A stretch of DNA of 35,163 nt from Candidatus Nomurabacteria bacterium RIFCSPHIGHO2_02_FULL_38_15 (GCA_001785575.1 MFUC01000006.1:1-35163); one strand, 5' to 3'. Counted from the first letter of the stretch, positions 377 through 35,163 are shown. Translations and numbers: made by a program. Notes: a model not told the origin generated them from the sequence alone.

Positions 377-462
377 CCAGGTAGTCCCAAATATGTATTG
401 GGATTTTGCTTTTAAGGCAAAAAATACCACCTTGGAGTTCCGCAGGAGCACAACCTGCAACT

Positions 463-1005
463 ATGCATACAAAAATAAAATTAACATTTTTCCAGTCTTT
501 AATAGTAATGCCGCTTATGGTAACGAACATCCTCGCGGGTGTTCCAGGAAGTGCTACGATTATGACAGGTGAAATGAACTCTATAAATTTGGCTGTAACA
601 GATGTTAGAGCCGAAAAGATTGACAAGTACTTTAAAGATCGTAATATGCCACTCGCTGGCTATGGTCAAAAAATGGTTGACGTCGCCGATAAAAACGATA
701 TCGATTGGAGACTAATACCAGCGATTGCTGTGCGTGAATCAACCGGAGGTAAGTTTGCTTGTAAAAGTAAAACTTTCAATCCCTTCGGTTGGGGATCGTG
801 TAAAATTGGTTTTAAATCTTACGACCATGCGATCGAAGTACTTGGTCAAAATTTAGGAGGTAATAATCCAAATACGAAACGTCATTACGACGAAAAAACC
901 GTAGATGGGATATTAAAAGCTTATAACCCCCCATCAGTTGTTCCTCAATATGCGTCCCAAGTAATAAAGATTATGGATGCTATCGAGAACATAGAGTTAA
1001 AATAA
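463..1005 (+). CDS. Secreted peptidoglycan-hydrolase-like protein (glucosaminidase/FlgJ- or SLT-like motif)
   Basis: ATG at 463 gives a signal-peptide-like N-terminus (MHTKIKLTFFQSLIVMPLMVTNILAGVPG). AGGAG lies at 444-448. The motif AIAVRESTGG...NPFGWG...SYDHAI resembles the catalytic-Glu region of muramidase/glucosaminidase domains. The ORF-track TTG start at 406 seems less likely. Confidence 0.5.
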   Translation: MHTKIKLTFFQSLIVMPLMVTNILAGVPGSATIMTGEMNSINLAVTDVRAEKIDKYFKDRNMPLAGYGQKMVDVADKNDIDWRLIPAIAVRESTGGKFACKSKTFNPFGWGSCKIGFKSYDHAIEVLGQNLGGNNPNTKRHYDEKTVDGILKAYNPPSVVPQYASQVIKIMDAIENIELK

Positions 1006-10843: not shown

Positions 10844-11287
10844 ATGAAGTCTAAAATCACTTTATTTGAAGGTCAAAACATAAGGCGAGAATGGGACGGC
10901 GAAAATGAGCTTTGGTATTTTTCAGTTGTTGATATTGTAAAAGCACTAACGGAGCAGTCAGATTTCCAAACAGCTCGAAATTATTGGAAAGTCTTAAAAC
11001 ACAGGCTTATTGCCGAAGGAAGTGAACTGGTTACAAAATGTAACCAGTTGAAAATGATAGCTGATGACGGCAAAATGCGAGAAACTGATGTTCTAGATAC
11101 AGAAAATATGCTTCGCTTGGTGCAATCTATTCCAAGTCCAAAAGCTGAACCATTCAAACTTTGGCTTGCGCAAGTTGGCTATGAAAGATTAGAGGAAACG
11201 GCTGACCCAGAGCTGGCTATTAATCGAGCGCTTAAAACATATTTTGTCGCAAGGACAGTCCTTGCGAATGGTTGCATAGTTTTTTGA
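10844..11287 (+). CDS. Bro-N domain protein, C-terminally truncated paralogue (possible gene remnant)
   Basis: FEGQNIRREWDGENELWYFSVVDIVKAL...LRLVQSIPSPKAEPFKLWLAQVGYERLEETADPE is nearly identical to the 30863-31540 protein. Homology stops after RALKTYF, followed by 13 unrelated codons and TGA. Confidence 0.65.
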   Translation: MKSKITLFEGQNIRREWDGENELWYFSVVDIVKALTEQSDFQTARNYWKVLKHRLIAEGSELVTKCNQLKMIADDGKMRETDVLDTENMLRLVQSIPSPKAEPFKLWLAQVGYERLEETADPELAINRALKTYFVARTVLANGCIVF

Positions 11288-17961: not shown

Positions 17962-18444
17962 ATGAAAATTATGAATTCTAAAATATTTACAAATAATTTC
18001 AAGAGAGTTTTTATAAGTTTATTTTTTGTCAGCATTTTGTTTACTGGCACGTTGGTTGTAAATAACCAAAGTGCTTTTGCCGATAAACACGAAAAAGTTG
18101 ATGTTAAAGCTGACAAGGATGATGCCGACGTAAAAGCTGATGATCCAGCGGGCGCAAAACCAGGCCTACAAATAACCCTAACCAACCCTCTAAAATCAGA
18201 AAATCTAGAGGATTTTGTGCAAGTTGTGCTGGCGGTGATTCTTAAATTTTTAATCCCAATCTTGGCGATTTTGTTTATTTATACCGGCTTTCAGCTGGTT
18301 ATGTCAGGTGGTGACAAAGCTGCCAGGAAGACGGCTAAAGACAACTTCTTTAACCTAGTTATTGGGGCAGTGTTGATTTTGGGTGCTTGGACATTTGGTA
18401 ATGTTATATTAAATACATTAAGAGAAACTGGAATTTTAAACTAA
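17962..18444 (+). CDS. VirB2/TrbC-like pilin, paralogue 2 (long acidic N-terminal extension)
   Basis: The signal peptide ends in SAFA. A KADKDDADVKADD region follows, then FIYTGFQLVMSGGDKAARKTAKDNFFNLVIGAVLILGAW (TM-loop-TM). Confidence 0.6.
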   Translation: MKIMNSKIFTNNFKRVFISLFFVSILFTGTLVVNNQSAFADKHEKVDVKADKDDADVKADDPAGAKPGLQITLTNPLKSENLEDFVQVVLAVILKFLIPILAILFIYTGFQLVMSGGDKAARKTAKDNFFNLVIGAVLILGAWTFGNVILNTLRETGILN

Positions 18445-18449
18445 ATACT

Positions 18450-18842
18450 ATGATTAAAACAAAAAACATATTAAAAAAATCATTAAAAACTTTACCCCTA
18501 GCCTTTTTACCGCTCATAGCTTTTGCCCAAACTGGCAGTACTTTGTGCGGGCCAATTAAGTACTCTAAATCATTGCAATGGTATTTGTGCGAAGTGTACA
18601 AAATTATTGGCCAGTATTTAATACCTTTGTTAATGTTGGCGGCCACTGGGTTTTTTATTTACGGCATTGTAATGTTTATTAAAAATGCCAACAATGAAAC
18701 CAAGCGCACAGAGTACAAAAATTACATGACCTGGGGTATTGTGGCATTGTTTGTGATGGTTTCAGTTTGGGGTATTGTGGCGATTTTGGGCCAAATTGTG
18801 GGTACAGATACATCAGTTATTCCACAAATTCGGTATAAATAG
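18450..18842 (+). CDS. VirB2/TrbC-like pilin, paralogue 3
   Basis: The signal peptide ends in AFAQ. There is a Cys pair (LCGP...YLCE), then FFIYGIVMFIKNANNETKRTEYKNYMTWGIVALFVMVSVWGIV. Confidence 0.65.
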   Translation: MIKTKNILKKSLKTLPLAFLPLIAFAQTGSTLCGPIKYSKSLQWYLCEVYKIIGQYLIPLLMLAATGFFIYGIVMFIKNANNETKRTEYKNYMTWGIVALFVMVSVWGIVAILGQIVGTDTSVIPQIRYK

Positions 18843-18918: not shown

Positions 18919-19305
18919 ATGAAAAAAGTATTATTGATTTTAGGTTCAGCCTTGGCACCAGTTTTAGCTTTTGCGCAAGCAACGCCTAATTTTGGGTATG
19001 TTACAAGTGGTGTTACTCAAATATACACCTTATTTACAACCTACCTTATACCAGGGTTAATGCTAATAGCTACGGGCTTCTTCATTTGGGGAGTTATTGG
19101 TTATATAAGGGCTAGCAGTGACGATGCCAAGAAGGAGGCTAAACACCGATTGGTTCAAAGCGTCATTGCCTTGGCCGTTATTGTATCAGTTTGGGGTATT
19201 ATTGCATTGTTGCAAAGTATTTTAGGTGTTAGGGCGTCATCAACAACAAATGTTGTTTGTCCTCCTGGGTATACTGCTGTTGGTGCACGTTGCCTACCTA
19301 TATAA
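18919..19305 (+). CDS. VirB2/TrbC-like pilin, paralogue 4 (C-terminal Cys-loop tail)
   Basis: Signal peptide MKKVLLILGSALAPVLAFAQ, then FFIWGVIGYIRASSDDAKKEAKHRLVQSVIALAVIVSVWGII, and a tail VVCPPGYTAVGARCLPI. Confidence 0.65.
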   Translation: MKKVLLILGSALAPVLAFAQATPNFGYVTSGVTQIYTLFTTYLIPGLMLIATGFFIWGVIGYIRASSDDAKKEAKHRLVQSVIALAVIVSVWGIIALLQSILGVRASSTTNVVCPPGYTAVGARCLPI

Positions 19306-22320: not shown

Positions 22321-22402
22321 GCCCAGGTGGCGAAATTGGTAGACGCACTGCTCTTAGGAAGCAGCGAGGTGACTCATGAAGGTTCAAGTCCTTTCCTGGG
22401 CA
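22321..22402 (+). tRNA. tRNA-Leu (anticodon TAG), long variable arm
   Basis: Acceptor GCCCAGG/CCTGGGC, anticodon stem CTGCT/AGCAG with loop CTTAGGA, T loop TTCAAGT and discriminator A. No CCA is encoded. Confidence 0.9.
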
Positions 22403-22415
22403 CAAAGGTTATACG

Positions 22416-23057
22416 CTAACCATGTGCTAGAATTTTGTTAGCAATAACTCTTTTTCTACTTAGAGCAATGCTATTTCTTGTGTATAGTATGGGTAGTATT
22501 TTTATTGCATCATACTTACCGAAAACAAGCGTGTACACAGAAGATTTCTTGGGTTTATGAATTGATCCACCACTTATCTTGTAAAGCTTACTTACTTGAG
22601 AAAGTATCCAAACAAGAAAGTTTTTACTAGCAGAAGATAACCTGAGTTTATATTGAGGTTGCTTACTTTGTGAATGTTTAAAAATCGAAATGCAACCATC
22701 ACCATCTATACAGCCTCTTAAAAAATCTTTGAAGTATTTTTCAGGTATCTTTAACACATCAATAGTTTTTGACTTATTTGTAGTTAAGCCAATACTTACT
22801 AAAAATTCAAAAAAGTTCACATCGCTAAATTGTAATACAAAATATTTTTTATCATGTTCTCCACCACGTGCTTTTTTAGAATATTTCATTTCTATTTTTA
22901 AACCTATTGCGCAGTTACTAATCATTTCTAGATCTTTAGACGTGATAACTACATGCCTTTGGTCGGGTGACAAATTACCATCAGTCGCAATAACGCCTAT
23001 TGTATAAGCAAAATTAGAATTCCACTTTGTTTGAACCTTTGATTTTCTGTGGGCCAT
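22416..23057 (-). CDS. LAGLIDADG homing endonuclease, two-motif monomeric type, free-standing
   Basis: Two LAGLIDADG motifs are present: FAYTIGVIATDGNL and FLRGCIDGDGCI. It lies between tRNA-Leu(TAG) and tRNA-Cys on the opposite strand. Confidence 0.8.
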   Translation of the reverse strand: MAHRKSKVQTKWNSNFAYTIGVIATDGNLSPDQRHVVITSKDLEMISNCAIGLKIEMKYSKKARGGEHDKKYFVLQFSDVNFFEFLVSIGLTTNKSKTIDVLKIPEKYFKDFLRGCIDGDGCISIFKHSQSKQPQYKLRLSSASKNFLVWILSQVSKLYKISGGSIHKPKKSSVYTLVFGKYDAIKILPILYTRNSIALSRKRVIANKILAHG

Positions 23058-23142: not shown

Positions 23143-23214
23143 GGTCTAGTCGCCAAGTGGTAAGGCAAGAGTCTGCAAAACTCTTATACGGCGGTTCGAT
23201 TCCGCCCTAGACCT
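23143..23214 (+). tRNA. tRNA-Cys (anticodon GCA)
   Basis: Acceptor GGTCTAG/CTAGACC, anticodon stem AGAGT/ACTCT with loop CTGCAAA, T arm GGCGG-TTCGATT-CCGCC and discriminator U. No CCA is encoded. Confidence 0.9.
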
Positions 23215-23225
23215 CAAAAATTTTA

Positions 23226-30742: not shown

Positions 30743-30862
30743 CAAAAATAAGGAGTGAAAAGACTTTTTATTTTTTGCTTGCCCTTTACAGGATCTTCGA
30801 GGTGACGTACTGCAAAGTACGGCCGAGCAAAATAGAGTCAGAAATAACACAAGAATAATAAT

Positions 30863-31540
30863 ATGACTAAAAAAACAAAAAACAGAATAGCGATTTTTGA
30901 AAATAAAGAAATTCGTCGTCATTGGGATGATGAAAAAGAGGAATGGTATTTTTCTGTTGTTGATATTATTTTTGCATTAACAGGCAGTATTAATCCACAA
31001 GTTTATTGGCGTGTTTTAAAGAAACGCCTTATAGACGAAGGCTCAAATGAAACCGTTACAAAGTGTAACGAGTTGAAAATGATAGTCATAGATGGCAAAA
31101 TACGTATTACTGATGTAGCTGATACAAAAACAGTTCTTCGGCTTGTGCAGTCTATCCCTTCGCCAAAAGCTGAACCTTTCAAATTGTGGCTTGCAAGAGT
31201 TGGCTATGAAAGATTGGAGGAAACAGCCGATCCTGAAATAGGCATACACCGAGCATTGAAAACTAAAAATTTAAAAGGATTAAAAAAAGAAAGCTTACGA
31301 GACAATATGACCAATCTGGAACTTGTACTAAATATGCTTGCGGAAACAGCAACTAATGAAATACACAAAAAAGAAAATTCAAAAGGTATGGTAAAATTAA
31401 AATCTGATGCCAAGGCAGGAGGTAGTGTTGCAGGAGGAGCTCGTAAAAAACTTGAAAAGCGTCTCAAGCATCCCATAGTATCAAAATCGAATTTCTTGAA
31501 AAATAAAGAAAATGTAAAGAGTTTAAAAGGTAAAAAATAA
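30863..31540 (+). CDS. Bro-N domain protein, longer paralogue with a C-terminal LRDNMTNLELVLNMLAE module
   Basis: FENKEIRRHWDDEKEEWYFSVVDIIFAL...LRLVQSIPSPKAEPFKLWLARVGYERLEETADPE is the Bro-N-type N-terminal domain. The C-terminal part (SLRDNMTNLELVLNMLAETATNEIHK...GGSVAGGARKKLE) matches what I recall of this family. Confidence 0.7.
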   Translation: MTKKTKNRIAIFENKEIRRHWDDEKEEWYFSVVDIIFALTGSINPQVYWRVLKKRLIDEGSNETVTKCNELKMIVIDGKIRITDVADTKTVLRLVQSIPSPKAEPFKLWLARVGYERLEETADPEIGIHRALKTKNLKGLKKESLRDNMTNLELVLNMLAETATNEIHKKENSKGMVKLKSDAKAGGSVAGGARKKLEKRLKHPIVSKSNFLKNKENVKSLKGKK

Positions 31541-31553
31541 GTTTATAAGCAAA

Positions 31554-34500
31554 ATGGCAAAATCAATAAACAAAATTTTAATACTCTCAGCCTTCCTTTT
31601 TCTTTTTTCCGCAAGTCATGCCTTTGCCGCGAATAGGTATTGGGTAGGGGGAACTGGTAACTGGAGTGACGATGATAACCATTGGTCTACAACGGATGGT
31701 GGTGCTCCAGGTGATGGTAATGTTCCGAGTGGTTCGGACAATGTAATTTTTAATACTAATTCAGGGTCTGCGGATTATACTGTAACTGTTACATCTGGAG
31801 CAACAAGTCTTAATTTAACAGCATCTGCTCCATCTTCAGGTAATTTGACAGTAAATGTTGCTAATACATTTACTGTGAATGGAAGTTTTACATTATATTC
31901 TGGTTTAGTACTTAGTAATGCTTCAACTATTTTGTTTTCTGGCTCTGGCACAACTAAGACGGTTACGATGGCAGGAACTACTTATGCAGGTCGCATGTTG
32001 TTTAACACAAGTGGAGCGAAATGGACTTTACAAGATACATTTTCAATTACAGATGATATTCAATTAACAGCAGGAACGCTGGATACTAACGGGCAAGCTG
32101 TTACAGCTAGAGCACTTTTTACATTTGGCTCAAGCACTAAAGTCCTTACATTTGGAGCTAGCGTAATCACTTTAACAGGATCCTCTGGTTTAGGAAATGT
32201 TGTTGACTTTTCTGGAGGCAATTTGACTGTTAATGCGAACACTTCAACAATTAAATTAACTGATTCTAGTACAAGTACAAAAACAATCGGTGGTAACGGA
32301 AAGACGTTTAATAAAATATGGATAGCTACAGGTAGCACTGGTTCGACAAACATAACTGGATCAAACACTTATGATGAAATTTATATTGATGGTAATGATA
32401 GGATTGTTAAATTTACCGCTGGAACAACTCAAACATTTACATCAGCGGGTCCTGGAATTACAACAAATGGAACTGGCATAACATTGGGTTCTATTACGTC
32501 TGCAACTCACACACTTACAAAGCCATCTGGTACTGTATCTATTTCAAATACAACACTTTCATATTCTGTTGCACAAGGTGGGGCACCTTGGAGAGCATAT
32601 ACTTCTAATACTAATGTTGATGGAGGAAATAATTCAGGTTGGTTTTTTACGCCATTTAGCATTTCAGGAACAGCCAATGGCAACAATGGAGCCACCGTAA
32701 AAGTTGCAATCAATGGCACAGTCCAAGCCCAAACGGGAACAATTGCAAGTTCTGCTTGGAGTATAGCAAGTGTGACTGAACCATCAGTCAACGACATCAT
32801 TACTGTATGGGTTGATGGTGCAACTGCTGGAGATGTTTCAGATGCCAATGAATCAACCGCTGTGACGAAATACAATGCTGGCGATGTGACTGGTATGGTC
32901 CTTAACACTGGAGTTTTGACCGTGGGTAGTAGTCAAAATACAAGTGTGTCCACGACAAATATGACTCAATATGAAAATAGTGATGACGAAGATGTGATGC
33001 ATAGTTCAACGAGTGGAGCATTAACTGTAGATGCTGGGGGTGTATATAGTGGAGAAACATTATCAATATTGGCAAGCAATACTTTAACCGTGGCTAGTGC
33101 ATCGACTGAAACTGTCACGACTGAGAAAATTACTAATGCCGGGACAATTACATCAACAGGTAGTCCGACATATACTTTAACAGGAACATCAGGAACTTTG
33201 TTTACAAATACAGGCACATTTACAGCGGACAGTTCAACTGTAACTATGAATCCTGATGGTGCAGTTACACTTACGTCAGGTAGTATCACATTTTATAATT
33301 TAACCTTAAATCCTACAATTACAAGTAGTCGGGTATATACTTTTGGTTCTAGTGCTTTGGCGATTAATGGAGATTTTAATATTAATCCAACAGCAGGATC
33401 AGCTCTTTCTTTGACTGTGAATGCAGGTGCAAATATTACTGTTGCAAGTGGCAAAACAACAACAATTTCAAGAGCAAATTCAGCTACATCAATCCTTGAT
33501 ATGCGTCCATCAGCATCTGATTATGATTTATCCACTGGTTTATTAAATGTAGCAACTGGTGGAACTCTTGATTTAACTTCTGTGGCGTCTGAAACTGCCC
33601 TGACTTTAACTGCAACATCTGGAACACTATTTACACTTGCTGGTACATTTACAATTACCAGTGGTACACCGACGGTTGTAATGTCAGGTAATGGTGATGC
33701 TACGATCAACTCAGGTGCGATCACATTTTATAATTTAACTTCTTCAGGTACAGGCACAAAAACCCTTGGAGCAGCTATCGAAGCTGGTGGAGCCCTGACT
33801 ATTTCAGCTGGAACTTTTGCTGGAAGCTCATACACCATTACACTTTCAGGTACTGGCACGGTATTTAATAACACGGCGACATATTCGGCAGGAACTTCAA
33901 CAATCAAATTTACAAATAATTCTTCTAGCGCTAAAACTTTTGCTGGTGGTGGTTCGACATTTAATAACTTTTGGTATGCACCTGGATCGGGTACTGGATC
34001 GTTAACAATTACAGGTTCTAACACTTTTGCTGATTTTAAAGATGATGGAACAGCTGCTCATTCAATATTGTTTACAACTGGAACGACTCAAACAGTTACG
34101 ACATTTACGGTTAATGGTACTGCCGGGAATTTAATTACAATCAACAGTACCGATACTGGTACCCATGCATTAGTAAAGTCTGGTGGTGGGACTATTACTT
34201 CAGATTATTTAAGCATTCAACACTCAGTTGCTACTCCAACTTCAACGTGGCTGGCCACCAACAGTACAAACAATCAAGCTGTTACAACTGCCGGCAGTGG
34301 TTGGTATTTTGGAGCTTTTAATGCCAATCCTGATACGCCAACATCTCTCGGTGCCACTGCCTACGTTAACGGCTCACTAGGCAATGACAATACCCCTACA
34401 CTTACTTTTACGCTAGCCGACAGTGACGTAGCCGATACTGTAAAATTCCAAATTCAAATTGATGACAGTTCAGATTTTGCTTCGGCTGTTGTGGACTATA

Positions 34501-35163
34501 CTTCTGCACTGGCCGCACAAGGTAGCGCCTCATTCACTGTTGGTCAAGCCGCTGGTTCGGGCACATATACTACCGGTTCCTCTGGTCAAACACTTAACGA
34601 CACAAGTTATTATTGGCGAGTCAAAGCCATAGATAATAGTGACGCTGCTTCAAGCTATGCTACGGCCAATTCTGGAAGTGTTGCATTTATTCTAGAAACT
34701 GTTGTGCCAACTATTACAAACGTCTCCTCTGACAAAACTAACGGTACATATACCACAGGTGAAGTCATTGATATAGATGTTACATTCTCTGAAGCTGTCA
34801 CTTCAACCGGTAATGTGACCGTAACTTTAGAAACTGGCACCACTGACCGAACTTGTACATTTACGGTCTCAGCCAGTACGACCGGTACATGTAACTATAC
34901 TGTCCAAGCCGGGGATACCACTTCTGACTTAACGGTCTCAACCATCTCAGGTACGATTGCTGATGCTGCCGGCAATGCCGTCTCTGACTTTGCCCCAGCT
35001 ACTAATTTAGCCGCTAACAAAGCTTTGGTCATTGACACCACGGCTCCGACTATTACAAACGTCTCTTCTTCTATCCCTTCTTCATCCACAACAACAGCCA
35101 CCATCACGTGGACTACCGACGAAGCCGCATCTTCGATTGTTGAATATGGCGAAACAACAAGCT
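31554..35163 (+). CDS. Giant secreted repeat surface protein (beta-helix-like repeats, FN3-like and Ig-like domains), 3' partial, >=1203 codons
   Basis: It is not in the supplied ORF track. I translated the frame by hand from ATG 31554 to the window end, spot-checking the register at 32040, 33300, 34200, 34620, 34680, 34980 and 35040, and found no stop. The signal peptide is MAKSINKILILSAFLFLFSASHAFA|ANRYWVGGTGNWSDDDNHWS. The body is a Thr/Ser/Gly/Asn-rich repeat region. The C-terminal part has YYWRVKAID (FN3-like), an Ig-like segment (TNGTYTTGEVIDIDVTFSEAV...YTVQAGDTTSDL...IADAAGNA) and TATITWTTDEAASSIVEYG (FN3 start). Confidence 0.85.
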   Translation, partial: MAKSINKILILSAFLFLFSASHAFAANRYWVGGTGNWSDDDNHWSTTDGGAPGDGNVPSGSDNVIFNTNSGSADYTVTVTSGATSLNLTASAPSSGNLTVNVANTFTVNGSFTLYSGLVLSNASTILFSGSGTTKTVTMAGTTYAGRMLFNTSGAKWTLQDTFSITDDIQLTAGTLDTNGQAVTARALFTFGSSTKVLTFGASVITLTGSSGLGNVVDFSGGNLTVNANTSTIKLTDSSTSTKTIGGNGKTFNKIWIATGSTGSTNITGSNTYDEIYIDGNDRIVKFTAGTTQTFTSAGPGITTNGTGITLGSITSATHTLTKPSGTVSISNTTLSYSVAQGGAPWRAYTSNTNVDGGNNSGWFFTPFSISGTANGNNGATVKVAINGTVQAQTGTIASSAWSIASVTEPSVNDIITVWVDGATAGDVSDANESTAVTKYNAGDVTGMVLNTGVLTVGSSQNTSVSTTNMTQYENSDDEDVMHSSTSGALTVDAGGVYSGETLSILASNTLTVASASTETVTTEKITNAGTITSTGSPTYTLTGTSGTLFTNTGTFTADSSTVTMNPDGAVTLTSGSITFYNLTLNPTITSSRVYTFGSSALAINGDFNINPTAGSALSLTVNAGANITVASGKTTTISRANSATSILDMRPSASDYDLSTGLLNVATGGTLDLTSVASETALTLTATSGTLFTLAGTFTITSGTPTVVMSGNGDATINSGAITFYNLTSSGTGTKTLGAAIEAGGALTISAGTFAGSSYTITLSGTGTVFNNTATYSAGTSTIKFTNNSSSAKTFAGGGSTFNNFWYAPGSGTGSLTITGSNTFADFKDDGTAAHSILFTTGTTQTVTTFTVNGTAGNLITINSTDTGTHALVKSGGGTITSDYLSIQHSVATPTSTWLATNSTNNQAVTTAGSGWYFGAFNANPDTPTSLGATAYVNGSLGNDNTPTLTFTLADSDVADTVKFQIQIDDSSDFASAVVDYTSALAAQGSASFTVGQAAGSGTYTTGSSGQTLNDTSYYWRVKAIDNSDAASSYATANSGSVAFILETVVPTITNVSSDKTNGTYTTGEVIDIDVTFSEAVTSTGNVTVTLETGTTDRTCTFTVSASTTGTCNYTVQAGDTTSDLTVSTISGTIADAAGNAVSDFAPATNLAANKALVIDTTAPTITNVSSSIPSSSTTTATITWTTDEAASSIVEYGETTS
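32297..32649 (+). repeat. Intragenic ~118-aa module, copy 1 (GKTFNKIW...GNNSGWFF)
   Basis: It aligns by eye with 33951-34310. Shared landmarks are TFNxxW, (N/T)ITGSNT(Y/F), FT(A/T)GTTQT(F/V)T, a conserved His plus a KxxGT motif (THTLTKPSGT vs THALVKSGGGT) and a terminal SGW(F/Y)F. Confidence 0.7.
33168..33305 (+). repeat. Intragenic ~46-aa module, copy 1 (TYTLTGTSGTLFTNTGTFT...SGSITFYNLT)
   Basis: It aligns with 33597-33740. The 17-nt string acattttataatttaac is identical at 33288-33304 and 33723-33739. Confidence 0.7.
33597..33740 (+). repeat. Intragenic ~46-aa module, copy 2 (ALTLTATSGTLFTLAGTFT...SGAITFYNLT)
   Basis: See 33168-33305. Confidence 0.7.
33951..34310 (+). repeat. Intragenic ~118-aa module, copy 2 (GSTFNNFW...TAGSGWYF)
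   Basis: See 32297-32649. Confidence 0.7.

What the first reader, a model, noticed from the sequence alone, without database searches (positions are those of the whole stretch)
31554..35163. Giant secreted repeat protein that the ORF track missed
The + frame starting at ATG 31554 stays open for 1203 codons to the last base of the window. The ORF track lists only seven short minus-strand ORFs here (32060-35107), whose Pro/Val/Ala-rich translations are typical antisense shadows.

The + product has these parts:
- a textbook signal peptide (cleavage after AFA);
- the N-terminal RYWVGGTGNWSDDDNHWS motif seen in many very large bacterial surface proteins;
- about 900 aa of Thr/Ser/Gly/Asn-rich beta-strand repeats;
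- FN3-like and Ig-like modules.

Its ATG lies 13 nt after the stop of the Bro-N paralogue. If this is a CPR-type episymbiont, such a protein is a prime candidate host-attachment adhesin. Its true size is unknown because it runs off the contig.
Basis: partly seen in the sequence, partly recalled or inferred. Interest (0 to 1): 0.75.

Follow-up and report, generated by a model that had tools for sequence, protein, structure and literature searches.

The report
Wall-anchored beta-solenoid surface protein, CPR bacterium
The open frame is a real gene for a 1398-residue secreted surface protein of a tiny Paceibacterota (CPR) bacterium, built from an uncatalogued beta-solenoid module that is also common in phage tail proteins and ending in a peptidoglycan-binding anchor; this is a fairly ordinary kind of protein, and its role in attaching to a host cell is still a guess.

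Summary
Frame 31554+3n is open for 1203 codons to the window end, and the seven minus-strand ORFs are antisense shadows. Of 34 polymorphic sites among seven strain contigs, 29 sit at codon position 3 of the + frame (31 synonymous, 4 nonsynonymous).

The protein is not giant and its size is no longer unknown. P0145 differs from the window product at one residue and is 1398 aa. Sister alleles are 1373 and 1486 aa. The contig breaks where these alleles diverge.

Architecture: Sec signal peptide, ~340-aa beta-solenoid module, beta-sandwich, second divergent solenoid, two Ig-like domains, an FN3-type domain, a linker, and a C-terminal PG_binding_1 domain.

The solenoid module matches nothing in Pfam, NCBIfam, PHROGs or PDB. 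It still defines a family of about 18,800 representative proteins. The four leaderless relatives whose loci I inspected all sit in phage structural gene blocks.

The organism is Candidatus Paceibacterota. The best reading is a fibril held on the cell's own wall that displays a ligand-binding solenoid. Adhesion to a partner cell is plausible but untested, and the literature already proposes it for similar Paceibacteria proteins. Interest is moderate to low. The undescribed module shared between phages and cells is the only new element.

The parts
31554..31628 (+). Sec-type signal peptide, residues 1-25 (MAKSINKILILSAFLFLFSASHAFA | ANRYW).
   Evidence: It is the only hydrophobic 19-aa stretch in the whole protein. 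It has a basic n-region, an 11-residue hydrophobic core with KD 3.05 and A-F-A at positions -3 to -1. The leaders of the close relatives P0002 and P0003 end in AFA|AD and ASA|AD. Phage relatives begin MADRYWVGG, exactly at the predicted mature end. SignalP was not run.
31629..32651 (+). Beta-solenoid module 1, residues 26-366. It runs from the N-terminal cap RYWVGGTGNWS...P..D.V.F to the C-terminal ...GGNNSGWFF.
   Evidence: The profile of 38 modules matches residues 26-366 with E = 6.5e-102. The AlphaFold2 model has pLDDT above 90 in nearly every 10-residue block of this stretch and consists of short beta-strands only. There is no hit in Pfam, NCBIfam or PHROGs, no PDB sequence relative and no PDB fold match better than E = 0.3. 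BFVD matches to uncultured phage proteins reach E = 1e-13.
32652..32948 (+). Beta-sandwich (Ig-like-type) insert domain, residues 367-465.
   Evidence: The AlphaFold2 model has pLDDT about 90 over slice residues 1-100 and is all-beta. This region and the stretch after it, residues ~368-565, are conserved in only a few relatives: P0002, P0003, P0012, P0077, P0151 and P0152. Pfam gives no hit.
33036..34373 (+). Second, divergent solenoid region, residues ~495-940. It includes a partial copy of the module at residues 667-921.
   Evidence: The module profile matches residues 667-921 (profile positions 105-338, E = 3.5e-24). There is an internal duplication with residues 205-375. AlphaFold2 pLDDT is 64-85 for residues 495-635 and 86-95 for residues 785-905. 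The overall BLAST alignment of query residues 686-919 to phage protein P0004 is 50% identical, and by eye the last ~140 residues are about 70% identical.
34386..34697 (+). Ig-like domain 1, residues ~945-1048, containing YYWRVKAID.
   Evidence: Pfam gives Ig_Rha78A_N at E = 0.0016 (19.1 bits, cutoff 27.4) and Big_13 at E = 0.014, both below threshold. The AlphaFold2 model is poor here. Relatives P0006 and P0068 carry PF25788 above threshold.
34698..35036 (+). Ig-like domain 2, residues 1049-1161, with the Cys1101/Cys1113 pair.
   Evidence: Pfam gives Big_12 at E = 4e-4 (20.9 bits, cutoff 27), below threshold. AlphaFold2 gives a beta-sandwich at pLDDT 62-72. This domain is duplicated in tandem in the 1486-aa allele P0143.
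35037..35163 (+). Start of an FN3-type domain, cut by the window end. The last 103 nt (35061-35163) are strain-variable.
   Evidence: In P0145 the complete domain matches Pur_ac_phosph_N at 33.1 bits against a cutoff of 30. Bases 35061-35163 do not align to six sister contigs that are otherwise 99.0-99.5% identical. P0145, whose gene lies on contig L016, carries this tail at the protein level, and L016 shows only 15 mismatches over the whole gene. Beyond the window P0145 continues with a linker and PG_binding_1 (E = 8.4e-13), reaching residue 1398.
30863..31540 (+). Upstream Bro-N gene, probably co-transcribed with the surface-protein gene.
   Evidence: Pfam gives Bro-N at E = 3.8e-7. PHROGs gives phrog_15286 at E = 3.3e-76. 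The gap to the ATG is 13 nt and no + strand terminator-like site lies between them. The same gene order is seen in seven strain contigs.
32060..35107 (-). Seven antisense shadow ORFs; these are not genes.
   Evidence: All seven are in one antisense frame. In the minus frames the strain polymorphisms are less often synonymous: 4/31, 0/35 and 23/12 synonymous/nonsynonymous, against 31/4 in the + frame.

Best explanation
The ORF is the first 1203 codons of a 1398-codon gene of a Candidatus Paceibacterota (CPR/Patescibacteria) bacterium.

The product is exported through Sec and its leader is cut after AFA. It is then held non-covalently on the cell's own peptidoglycan by its C-terminal PG_binding_1 domain.

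A stalk of one FN3-type and two Ig-like domains projects about 900 residues of beta-solenoid away from the wall. The solenoid consists of one complete ~340-aa module, a beta-sandwich insert, and a second divergent module.

The solenoid is the working end. By homology with the same module in phage tail-region proteins, it most likely binds a surface ligand on another cell or particle, probably a glycan, without catalysis. The protein is therefore an adhesin-like fibril.

Shown here: coding status, full length, domain order, solenoid fold, PG-binding domain, homology to phage proteins, and taxon. Inferred: leader cleavage, self-anchoring orientation, ligand binding, and any role in attachment to a host cell.
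For: Coding status:
- 34 polymorphic sites among seven strain contigs, 29 at codon position 3.
- 31 synonymous against 4 nonsynonymous changes in the + frame.

Full length and anchor:
- P0145 differs from the window product at 1 of 1203 residues. It is 1398 aa and ends in PG_binding_1 (E = 8.4e-13).
- The gene order ClpB, L33, Bro-N, this gene is the same on the sister contigs. On the P0001-allele contigs that extend downstream, MiaA and ParB follow.

Export:
- The leader is the only hydrophobic segment of the protein.
- Eight relatives have leaders ending in an AXA-type site right before the motif, and 94 relatives lack any leader.
- All six cysteines lie in the C-terminal stalk and linker, at positions compatible with three local disulfide pairs.

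Fold:
- AlphaFold2 pLDDT is above 90 over most of module 1, which is made of short strands only.

Module context:
- Leaderless relatives lie between capsid or adaptor genes and tail-fibre genes.
- Other cellular relatives pair the module with other surface or secretion domains: PF18962, LamG, DUF2341 and G8.

Non-catalytic reading:
- Across 38 diverse modules only seven columns are at least 60% acidic or basic. Only D62 reaches 90%, and it lies in the N-terminal cap.

Taxon and literature:
- The 90%-identity cluster of GyrA contains a protein named from a Candidatus Paceibacterota MAG.
- Three T4SS-pilin paralogues lie in the window.
- Paceibacteria highly express secreted proteins with PG-binding and Ig-like domains, and these have been proposed to act in host attachment (PMC10936435).
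Against: - No binding partner, expression data or localisation is available for this protein.
- PG_binding_1 is best known for targeting wall hydrolases to peptidoglycan, so it could bind a partner cell's wall rather than the cell's own.
- The solenoid is nearly invariant between strains while the stalk and anchor vary. This is the opposite of what is usual for adhesin heads in an arms race.
- Foldseek finds no significant PDB match, so 'beta-helix like tailspikes' rests on weak hits (E of 0.03 or worse, TM of 0.22 or less) and on the secondary-structure pattern.
- AlphaFold2 is poor for parts of the central region (residues ~640-670) and for most of the stretch from residue 924 onward, including Ig-like domain 1 and the truncated FN3.
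- No Shine-Dalgarno sequence precedes the ATG.
Confidence: 0.55

Rival explanations
1. It is a secreted polysaccharide- or wall-degrading enzyme. The beta-solenoid would be a depolymerase like phage tailspikes or pectate and alginate lyases. The PG_binding_1 domain would target it to the wall of a partner or prey cell so the CPR cell can feed on it or breach it.
For: The weak top Foldseek hits are the tailspike CBA120 TSP4, PL6 alginate lyases and polygalacturonases. PG_binding_1 typically accompanies wall hydrolases (established knowledge, also stated in PMC10936435). Homologues sit in phage tail regions, where depolymerases are common.
Against: All those fold matches are non-significant (E of 0.3 or worse, TM of 0.22 or less). 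No Pfam beta-helix, lyase or glycosidase family matches even at E = 1. No conserved acidic or basic cluster is present in the body of the module across 38 sequences.
Confidence: 0.15
2. It is a phage-derived gene kept by the cell: either a prophage remnant or a domesticated receptor-binding protein. It might block or decoy phage adsorption, for example, rather than serve cell-cell attachment.
For: The two closest non-orthologous relatives of the solenoid modules, P0004 and P0056, lie in phage structural blocks. The gene directly upstream is a Bro-N protein matching phage family phrog_15286 at E = 3.3e-76. tRNA-Trp, a classical type of integration site, lies 120 nt upstream of Bro-N. A second lineage also has Bro-N, plus AbiEii, just upstream of a related gene.
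Against: There are no other phage genes around it. The flanks are ClpB, L33, MiaA and ParB. The gene has a signal peptide and a wall anchor that virion proteins lack. Only 5 nt separate its stop from MiaA, which leaves no room for an att repeat. The phage contigs differ in GC content, 46-57% against 38.5%.
Confidence: 0.12
3. It is a structural envelope protein, an S-layer or sheath subunit, anchored to peptidoglycan, with no specific ligand.
For: It is a large, Thr/Ser-rich, low-charge secreted protein with a wall-binding domain. CPR cells are known to carry surface layers (established knowledge from cryo-EM of groundwater ultra-small bacteria). Purifying selection on the exposed part is strong.
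Against: No SLH or other known S-layer anchoring or lattice domain was found. The same module is used in single phage tail proteins and in multi-thousand-residue fibrillar proteins. The elongated arrangement of solenoid plus Ig stalk suggests a fibril, not a lattice.
Confidence: 0.12
4. The long + frame is a chance or non-coding open frame, and the minus-strand ORFs are the real genes.
For: None beyond their appearance in the ORF list.
Against: The chance of such an open frame is about 1e-33. Polymorphisms concentrate at codon position 3 of the + frame. There are hundreds of homologues. AlphaFold2 folds the product confidently.
Confidence: 0.01

Closest known systems
Phage tail-region beta-helix proteins (tailspikes and tail fibres), including the uncharacterised proteins of Limnohabitans phage DC31 and Methylophilaceae phage P19250A and many uncultured phages
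   Same: The ~340-aa module is homologous. Identity to phage-contig proteins such as P0004 ranges from about 40% to, by eye, about 70% in the best stretch, and is 32-34% to the two cultured phages. It has the same N-terminal cap motif and the same predicted all-beta solenoid, with BFVD matches at E = 1e-13 to 3e-5.
   Different: The window protein has a Sec leader, an Ig/FN3 stalk and a peptidoglycan-binding anchor, and it sits among housekeeping genes. The phage proteins have no leader and lie between adaptor and tail-fibre genes. None of the phage homologues has a tested function.
Secreted PG-binding-domain and Ig-like proteins highly expressed by archaea-parasitising Ca. Paceibacteria (Kuroda et al. 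2024, PMC10936435)
   Same: Same bacterial class-level group, same secreted status, same PG-binding and Ig-like domains, and the same proposed role in host attachment.
   Different: Sequence relatedness was not tested because those sequences were not at hand. The paper does not describe a beta-solenoid module or any link to phages.
Autotransporter passenger beta-helix adhesins (JGI labels some relatives 'fibronectin-binding autotransporter adhesin'; IgA1 protease passenger 3h09)
   Same: A long Thr/Ser/Gly/Asn-rich beta-solenoid displayed on the cell surface. The W..G....W....NW...P...D..F type of N-terminal cap resembles, from memory, the starts of PATR-repeat proteins. The best PDB fold hit of the second model is 3h09 (E = 0.03, TM 0.17).
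   Different: There is no C-terminal beta-barrel translocator, no PATR (PF12951) match and no outer membrane in this lineage. The anchor is PG_binding_1. The fold match is not significant.
Wall-attached beta-helix adhesins of monoderm bacteria, such as Streptococcus pneumoniae PfbA (PMC3718772)
   Same: A secreted protein attached to the cell wall, whose functional core is a beta-helix used for binding rather than catalysis. This comes from the paper's abstract listed; the right-handed parallel beta-helix detail is from my own knowledge.
   Different: PfbA is covalently anchored through LPXTG and sortase and is much smaller. No sequence or significant structural similarity was found here.

Membership tests
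Sec-exported protein with a type I signal peptide | N-terminal basic n-region, hydrophobic h-region of 7-15 residues, AXA-type cleavage site, and no lipobox | tested here: met
   The leader is MAKSINK / ILILSAFLFLF / SASHAFA|A. The maximum 11-residue KD value is 3.05. There is no Cys before residue 1101. Relatives have leaders ending directly before the motif. SignalP itself was not available.
PG_binding_1 (PF01471) wall-binding proteins | A Pfam PF01471 match above the gathering score | tested here: met
   P0145 C-terminus scores 48.7 bits (cutoff 23, E = 8.4e-13). P0001 scores 57.3 bits. The domain lies beyond the window end, and P0145 differs from the window product at 1 of 1203 residues.
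PG_binding_1 (PF01471) wall-binding proteins | Actual binding to peptidoglycan, and whose peptidoglycan (own or partner's) | not testable with these tools
   This needs a pull-down of the recombinant domain with purified sacculi.
Type V autotransporter adhesin (the label that JGI gives relatives) | A C-terminal beta-barrel translocator domain | tested here: not met
   Full-length P0001 and P0145 end in PG_binding_1, and no autotransporter domain appears in Pfam scans.
Type V autotransporter adhesin (the label that JGI gives relatives) | PATR / autotransporter-associated beta-strand repeats (PF12951) | tested here: not met
   No such hit appears even at E = 1.
Right-handed parallel beta-helix (pectate-lyase-like) superfamily | A sequence match to a Pfam beta-helix family, or a significant structural match to a solved beta-helix | tested here: inconclusive
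   There is no Pfam hit. Foldseek PDB hits to tailspikes, PL6 lyases and polygalacturonases are only E = 0.3-3 with TM 0.13-0.22. The AlphaFold2 secondary structure fits a solenoid. One BFVD homologue is named 'Parallel beta-helix repeat'. Handedness and coil geometry could not be inspected.
Phage tail fibre / tailspike (virion receptor-binding protein) | Encoded within a phage structural module and lacking a secretion signal | tested here: not met
   The window gene is flanked by ClpB, tRNA-Tyr, L33, tRNA-Trp and Bro-N on one side and MiaA and ParB on the other, and it has a leader. Homologues P0028, P0004, P0043 and P0056 do meet this feature.
FN3 / Ig-like (E-set) stalk domains | A Pfam match above the gathering score, or a confident beta-sandwich model | tested here: met
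   Pur_ac_phosph_N scores 33.1 bits against a cutoff of 30 in P0145 residues ~1162-1270. Residues 366-465 form a beta-sandwich at pLDDT about 90. Big_12, Big_13 and Ig_Rha78A_N for residues 917-1163 are below threshold.
SLH-anchored S-layer protein | SLH domains or another known S-layer anchoring or lattice domain | tested here: not met
   No such Pfam or NCBIfam hit was found.
CPR / Patescibacteria genome | Housekeeping proteins cluster with named Patescibacteria sequences | tested here: met
   The 90%-identity cluster of GyrA contains MBP6912325.1 from 'Candidatus Pacebacteria/Paceibacterota bacterium'. Relatives of the gene occur in 'Patescibacteria group bacterium' MAGs.

The most novel reading that the evidence does not exclude
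The ~340-aa 'RYWVGG-capped' beta-solenoid is an uncatalogued receptor-binding module that moves between phages and cells. This Paceibacterota lineage would have recruited a phage tail-type receptor-binding module, added a Sec leader and a peptidoglycan anchor, and now uses it either to grip its host cell or to interfere with phage adsorption. The episymbiont's attachment device would then be, in evolutionary terms, a domesticated phage tail protein, and the module family would give a handle for predicting partner specificity in CPR bacteria.
Probability: 0.18. Interest if true: 0.65.

Novelty: new member of a known kind. Interest (0 to 1): 0.35.

Why it matters
How CPR bacteria recognise and hold on to their partner cells is still largely unknown, and candidate attachment proteins are useful. 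This one now has a defined full length, domain map and anchor.

The more general gain is a large, unannotated beta-solenoid module family of about 18,800 representative proteins. It is present in phage tail regions and in cell-surface proteins of up to 7,761 residues. It could be added to domain databases and tested as a receptor-binding unit.

As a single gene, though, it is an expected type of protein for this lineage, and no new mechanism is shown.

Tried and rejected
- Pfam, NCBIfam and PHROGs scans of the whole product gave nothing significant for residues 1-940.
- PDB sequence searches found nothing relevant, either with the single protein (only spurious COP9 hits at E about 0.4) or with the module profile (0 hits).
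- Foldseek against PDB with both models gave no match at E of 0.001 or better.
- BLASTP self-comparison found no repeats. A Smith-Waterman slice scan was needed to find the internal duplication.
- Hydrophobic autocorrelation did not exceed the shuffle null, so there is no regular coil period in the sequence.
- Tandem Repeats Finder found no DNA repeats.
- A homologue search with the central region, residues 366-700, returned only four short fragments. The second AlphaFold2 alignment was therefore shallow and its model only partly confident.
A scan with P0004 gave three IMG/VR loci.
- The genome-contig scan did not recover the window's own species, only distant relatives.
- Bro-N relatives in the phage collection are only short, unannotated faecal 'Bacteriophage sp.' fragments.
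- The prophage-island idea was considered and downgraded. No att-type space exists downstream, and the neighbours on both sides are housekeeping genes.

Full report
**1. The observation**

Translating 31554-35163 on the + strand gives 1203 sense codons and no stop. At the gene's 41% GC the expected stop frequency is 0.061 per codon, so an open run this long has a chance of about 1e-33.

The ORF lister shows seven minus-strand ORFs between 32060 and 35107 and no + ORF. By its own rule it leaves out ORFs that run off the source. The 'missed' gene is therefore a listing artefact, not a biological oddity.

The seven minus ORFs all lie in one antisense frame and are rich in Val, Pro, Leu and Ala. 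The Bro-N ORF ends at 31540, 13 nt before the ATG.

**2. Coding status**

Seven near-identical contigs from other samples cover the gene: L001-L006 and L016, at 99.0-99.5% nucleotide identity. Within codons 1-1169 they differ from the window at 34 sites:

- 29 of the sites are at codon position 3 of the + frame.
- 31 changes are synonymous and 4 nonsynonymous in that frame.
- In every other frame fewer changes are synonymous, and in four of the five nearly all are nonsynonymous (first seen).

The + frame is the gene, and it is under purifying selection.

**3. True length and the contig break**

The closest database protein found first, P0001, is 1373 aa. It matches the window product up to residue 1169 and then diverges. 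At the DNA level the last 103 nt of the window (35061-35163) do not align to six of the sister contigs.

The same 90%-identity cluster holds two more full-length alleles:

- P0145 is 1398 aa. It differs from the window product at 1 of 1203 residues and carries the window's divergent tail.
- P0143 is 1486 aa and has the second Ig-like domain duplicated in tandem.

The window's gene is therefore 1398 codons. The assembly broke where co-existing strains carry different C-terminal cassettes. On the P0001-allele contigs that extend downstream, the gene is followed 5 nt later by MiaA on the other strand, and then by ParB.

**4. Organism**

The window carries DnaE, RNase HII, Fmt, HisRS, signal peptidase I, S1, GyrA, IF-2, ClpB, L33 and six tRNAs. 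It is chromosomal.

GyrA falls in a 90%-identity cluster with a protein named from a 'Candidatus Pacebacteria/Paceibacterota bacterium' MAG. Three T4SS-pilin paralogues are present. Relatives of the gene occur in 'Patescibacteria group bacterium' MAGs.

**5. Anatomy of the protein (residue numbers of P0145)**

- Residues 1-25: a Sec-type leader. It has a basic n-region, an 11-residue hydrophobic core and AFA at positions -3 to -1. It is the only hydrophobic segment in the protein.
- Residues 26-366: a complete module. It starts with RYWVGGTGNWSDDDNHWS...P..D.V.F and ends with GGNNSGWFF.
- Residues 367-465: a beta-sandwich, followed by a short acidic stretch.
- Residues ~495-940: a second, divergent solenoid. 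Its C-terminal half (residues 667-921 by profile) duplicates residues 205-375, scoring 271 against 76 +/- 10 for shuffles.
- Residues ~945-1048 and 1049-1161: two Ig-like domains. Ig_Rha78A_N, Big_13 and Big_12 all score below threshold.
- Residues 1162-~1260: an FN3-type domain. Pur_ac_phosph_N scores 33.1 bits against a cutoff of 30.
- After this come a Cys-containing linker and PG_binding_1 (E = 8.4e-13).

All six cysteines lie after residue 1100, at positions compatible with three local pairs. Charged residues are scarce: D 4.7%, E 1.5%, K 2.5%, R 1.0% (measured on the near-identical P0001).

**6. Structure**

The first AlphaFold2 job used a 38-sequence module alignment. It models residues 26-365 at pLDDT above 90 in nearly every 10-residue block, as some 35 short strands with no real helices, which is a beta-solenoid.

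The second job covered residues 366-1203 with a shallow alignment. Its confidence varies by region:

- Confident: the 366-465 beta-sandwich and residues 785-905.
- Moderate: residues 495-635 and the second Ig-like domain.
- Poor: elsewhere.

Neither model has a significant PDB neighbour:

- The second model's best hit is the IgA1 protease passenger at E = 0.03.

The module profile has no PDB sequence relative at all. Predicted structures of uncultured-phage proteins do match, at E = 1e-13 to 3e-5.

**7. The module family**

No Pfam, NCBIfam or PHROG model matches the module. A 343-position profile nevertheless finds many proteins among 1.84 billion representatives:

- 18,816 proteins at E of 0.001 or better
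- 14,220 at E of 1e-10 or better
- 9,012 at E of 1e-30 or better
- proteins up to 7,761 aa long, with up to 29 matched stretches in one protein

Of the 120 best word-indexed hits, 94 start directly with the motif (M-A-D-R-Y-W-V-G-G) and have no leader. Eight have a hydrophobic leader ending in an AXA-type site right before the motif.

I inspected the loci of four leaderless proteins. All four sit in phage structural blocks:

- P0028 (1487 aa) lies between capsid and SU10-type adaptor genes and a Peptidase_S74 tail-fibre gene.
- P0004 lies downstream of a capsid gene.
- P0043 lies next to an SU10-type adaptor gene, on a contig that IMG/VR lists as a viral genome.
- P0056 lies just downstream of a gene with a faint SU10-type adaptor match.

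Two cultured freshwater phages, Limnohabitans phage DC31 and Methylophilaceae phage P19250A, also carry the module in unannotated or misnamed genes.

Cellular carriers combine it with other surface devices: PF18962 (a type IX secretion sorting domain, from my knowledge of Pfam), LamG with DUF2341 (including a Hadesarchaea protein), G8, and PT-HINT.

The module is thus an extracellular building block whose export and anchor parts are swapped according to the carrier. P0004, a phage protein, is about 42% identical to module 1, including an almost identical cap. Its overall BLAST alignment with query residues 686-919 is 50% identical, and by eye the last ~140 residues of that alignment are about 70% identical. 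Its contig has 50% GC against 38.5% for the window.

**8. Mechanism**

Most likely the protein is exported by Sec and processed after residue 25. It would then be retained on the cell's own peptidoglycan through the C-terminal domain, with the Ig/FN3 stalk holding the solenoids away from the wall.

The C-terminal position of the anchor matches the logic of the relatives. In those, the C-terminus carries a sorting domain or, in P0003, a short hydrophobic tail.

The solenoid body has no conserved acidic or basic cluster across 38 diverse modules. Only D62, in the cap, is at least 90% conserved. I therefore favour binding over catalysis. A role in partner-cell attachment follows by analogy with two published observations:

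- Secreted PG-binding and Ig-like proteins that Paceibacteria express strongly while parasitising methanogens (PMC10936435).
- The large surface proteins of Vampirococcus (PMC8080830).

That role is inference, not a result.

One point counts against a fast-evolving adhesin head. Between strains the solenoid is almost invariant, while the stalk and anchor cassette vary by replacement and duplication. The few SNPs cluster in two patches, codons 754-768 and 1094-1168.

**9. Rivals**

- A depolymerase targeted to a partner's wall is possible but lacks any catalytic signature.
- A phage-derived gene is suggested by four observations: the phage affinity of the module, the co-transcribed Bro-N gene (phrog_15286, E = 3.3e-76), the nearby tRNA-Trp, and a second lineage in which Bro-N and AbiEii precede a related gene. 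Against it, the flanks are housekeeping genes and the protein carries cellular export and anchor signals.
- An S-layer role cannot be excluded without abundance data.
- The non-coding reading is refuted.

**10. Comparison with known families, and novelty**

The protein works like a wall-attached beta-helix adhesin (PfbA type) or like an autotransporter passenger. It fails the autotransporter membership tests: it has no translocator barrel and no PATR repeats.

It shares a homologous module with phage tail-region proteins, but it is not a virion protein. It fits the class of secreted PG-binding-domain and Ig-like proteins already discussed for Paceibacteria.

I rate it a new member of a known kind. 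The unannotated module shared between phages and cells is the one new element worth recording.

**11. Verdict**

Interest is 0.35. The most novel reading still open is that this is a domesticated phage receptor-binding module serving as the episymbiont's attachment or anti-phage device. I give that a probability of about 0.18.

Noticed in passing
window 17962-18444, 18450-18842, 18919-19305 (+): Three tandem small ORFs each match T4SS_pilin (PF18895, E = 3e-7 to 8e-9). This is a paralogous pilin cluster downstream of a 440-aa ORF with no Pfam match.
   Followed up: no
window 22416-23057 (-): A free-standing LAGLIDADG homing-endonuclease-like ORF sits between tRNA-Leu(tag) at 22321-22403 and tRNA-Cys at 23143-23215, inside a cluster of four tRNA genes.
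   Followed up: no
window 10844-11287 (+) and 30863-31540 (+): Two Bro-N paralogues are 69% identical over 132 residues. The one next to the surface-protein gene matches phage family phrog_15286 at E = 3.3e-76 and has an extra C-terminal part matching phrog_28094.
   Followed up: partly
L019 5739-14030: In another lineage a related 2009-aa module protein (P0012) is preceded by HSP20 on the other strand, a Bro-N gene, a 201-aa ORF and an AbiEii toxin gene. In L017 the related P0003 also follows an HSP20 gene. Bro-N therefore lies near a module gene in two separate lineages.
   Followed up: no
window 35061-35163; P0001, P0143, P0145: Three C-terminal alleles co-exist in closely related strains: 1373, 1398 and 1486 aa. 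The FN3-linker-anchor cassette is replaced in one, and the Ig-like domain is exactly duplicated in another. SNPs elsewhere cluster in two short patches, codons 754-768 and 1094-1168, which suggests recombination tracts.
   Followed up: partly
L014 1-13959 (Neptuniibacter sp. MAG): One reading frame is open over the whole 13,959-nt locus (more than 4,653 codons) and contains two copies of the module. This is a genuinely giant protein in a gammaproteobacterium.
   Followed up: no
window 31541-31553 and 30850-30862: Neither the surface-protein gene nor the Bro-N gene has a recognisable Shine-Dalgarno sequence upstream of its ATG.
   Followed up: no
window 406-1005 (+): A 199-aa ORF has a sub-threshold match to the Glucosaminidase family (PF01832, E = 4e-4, 21.5 bits against a cutoff of 30.2). 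It may be a small wall hydrolase.
   Followed up: no
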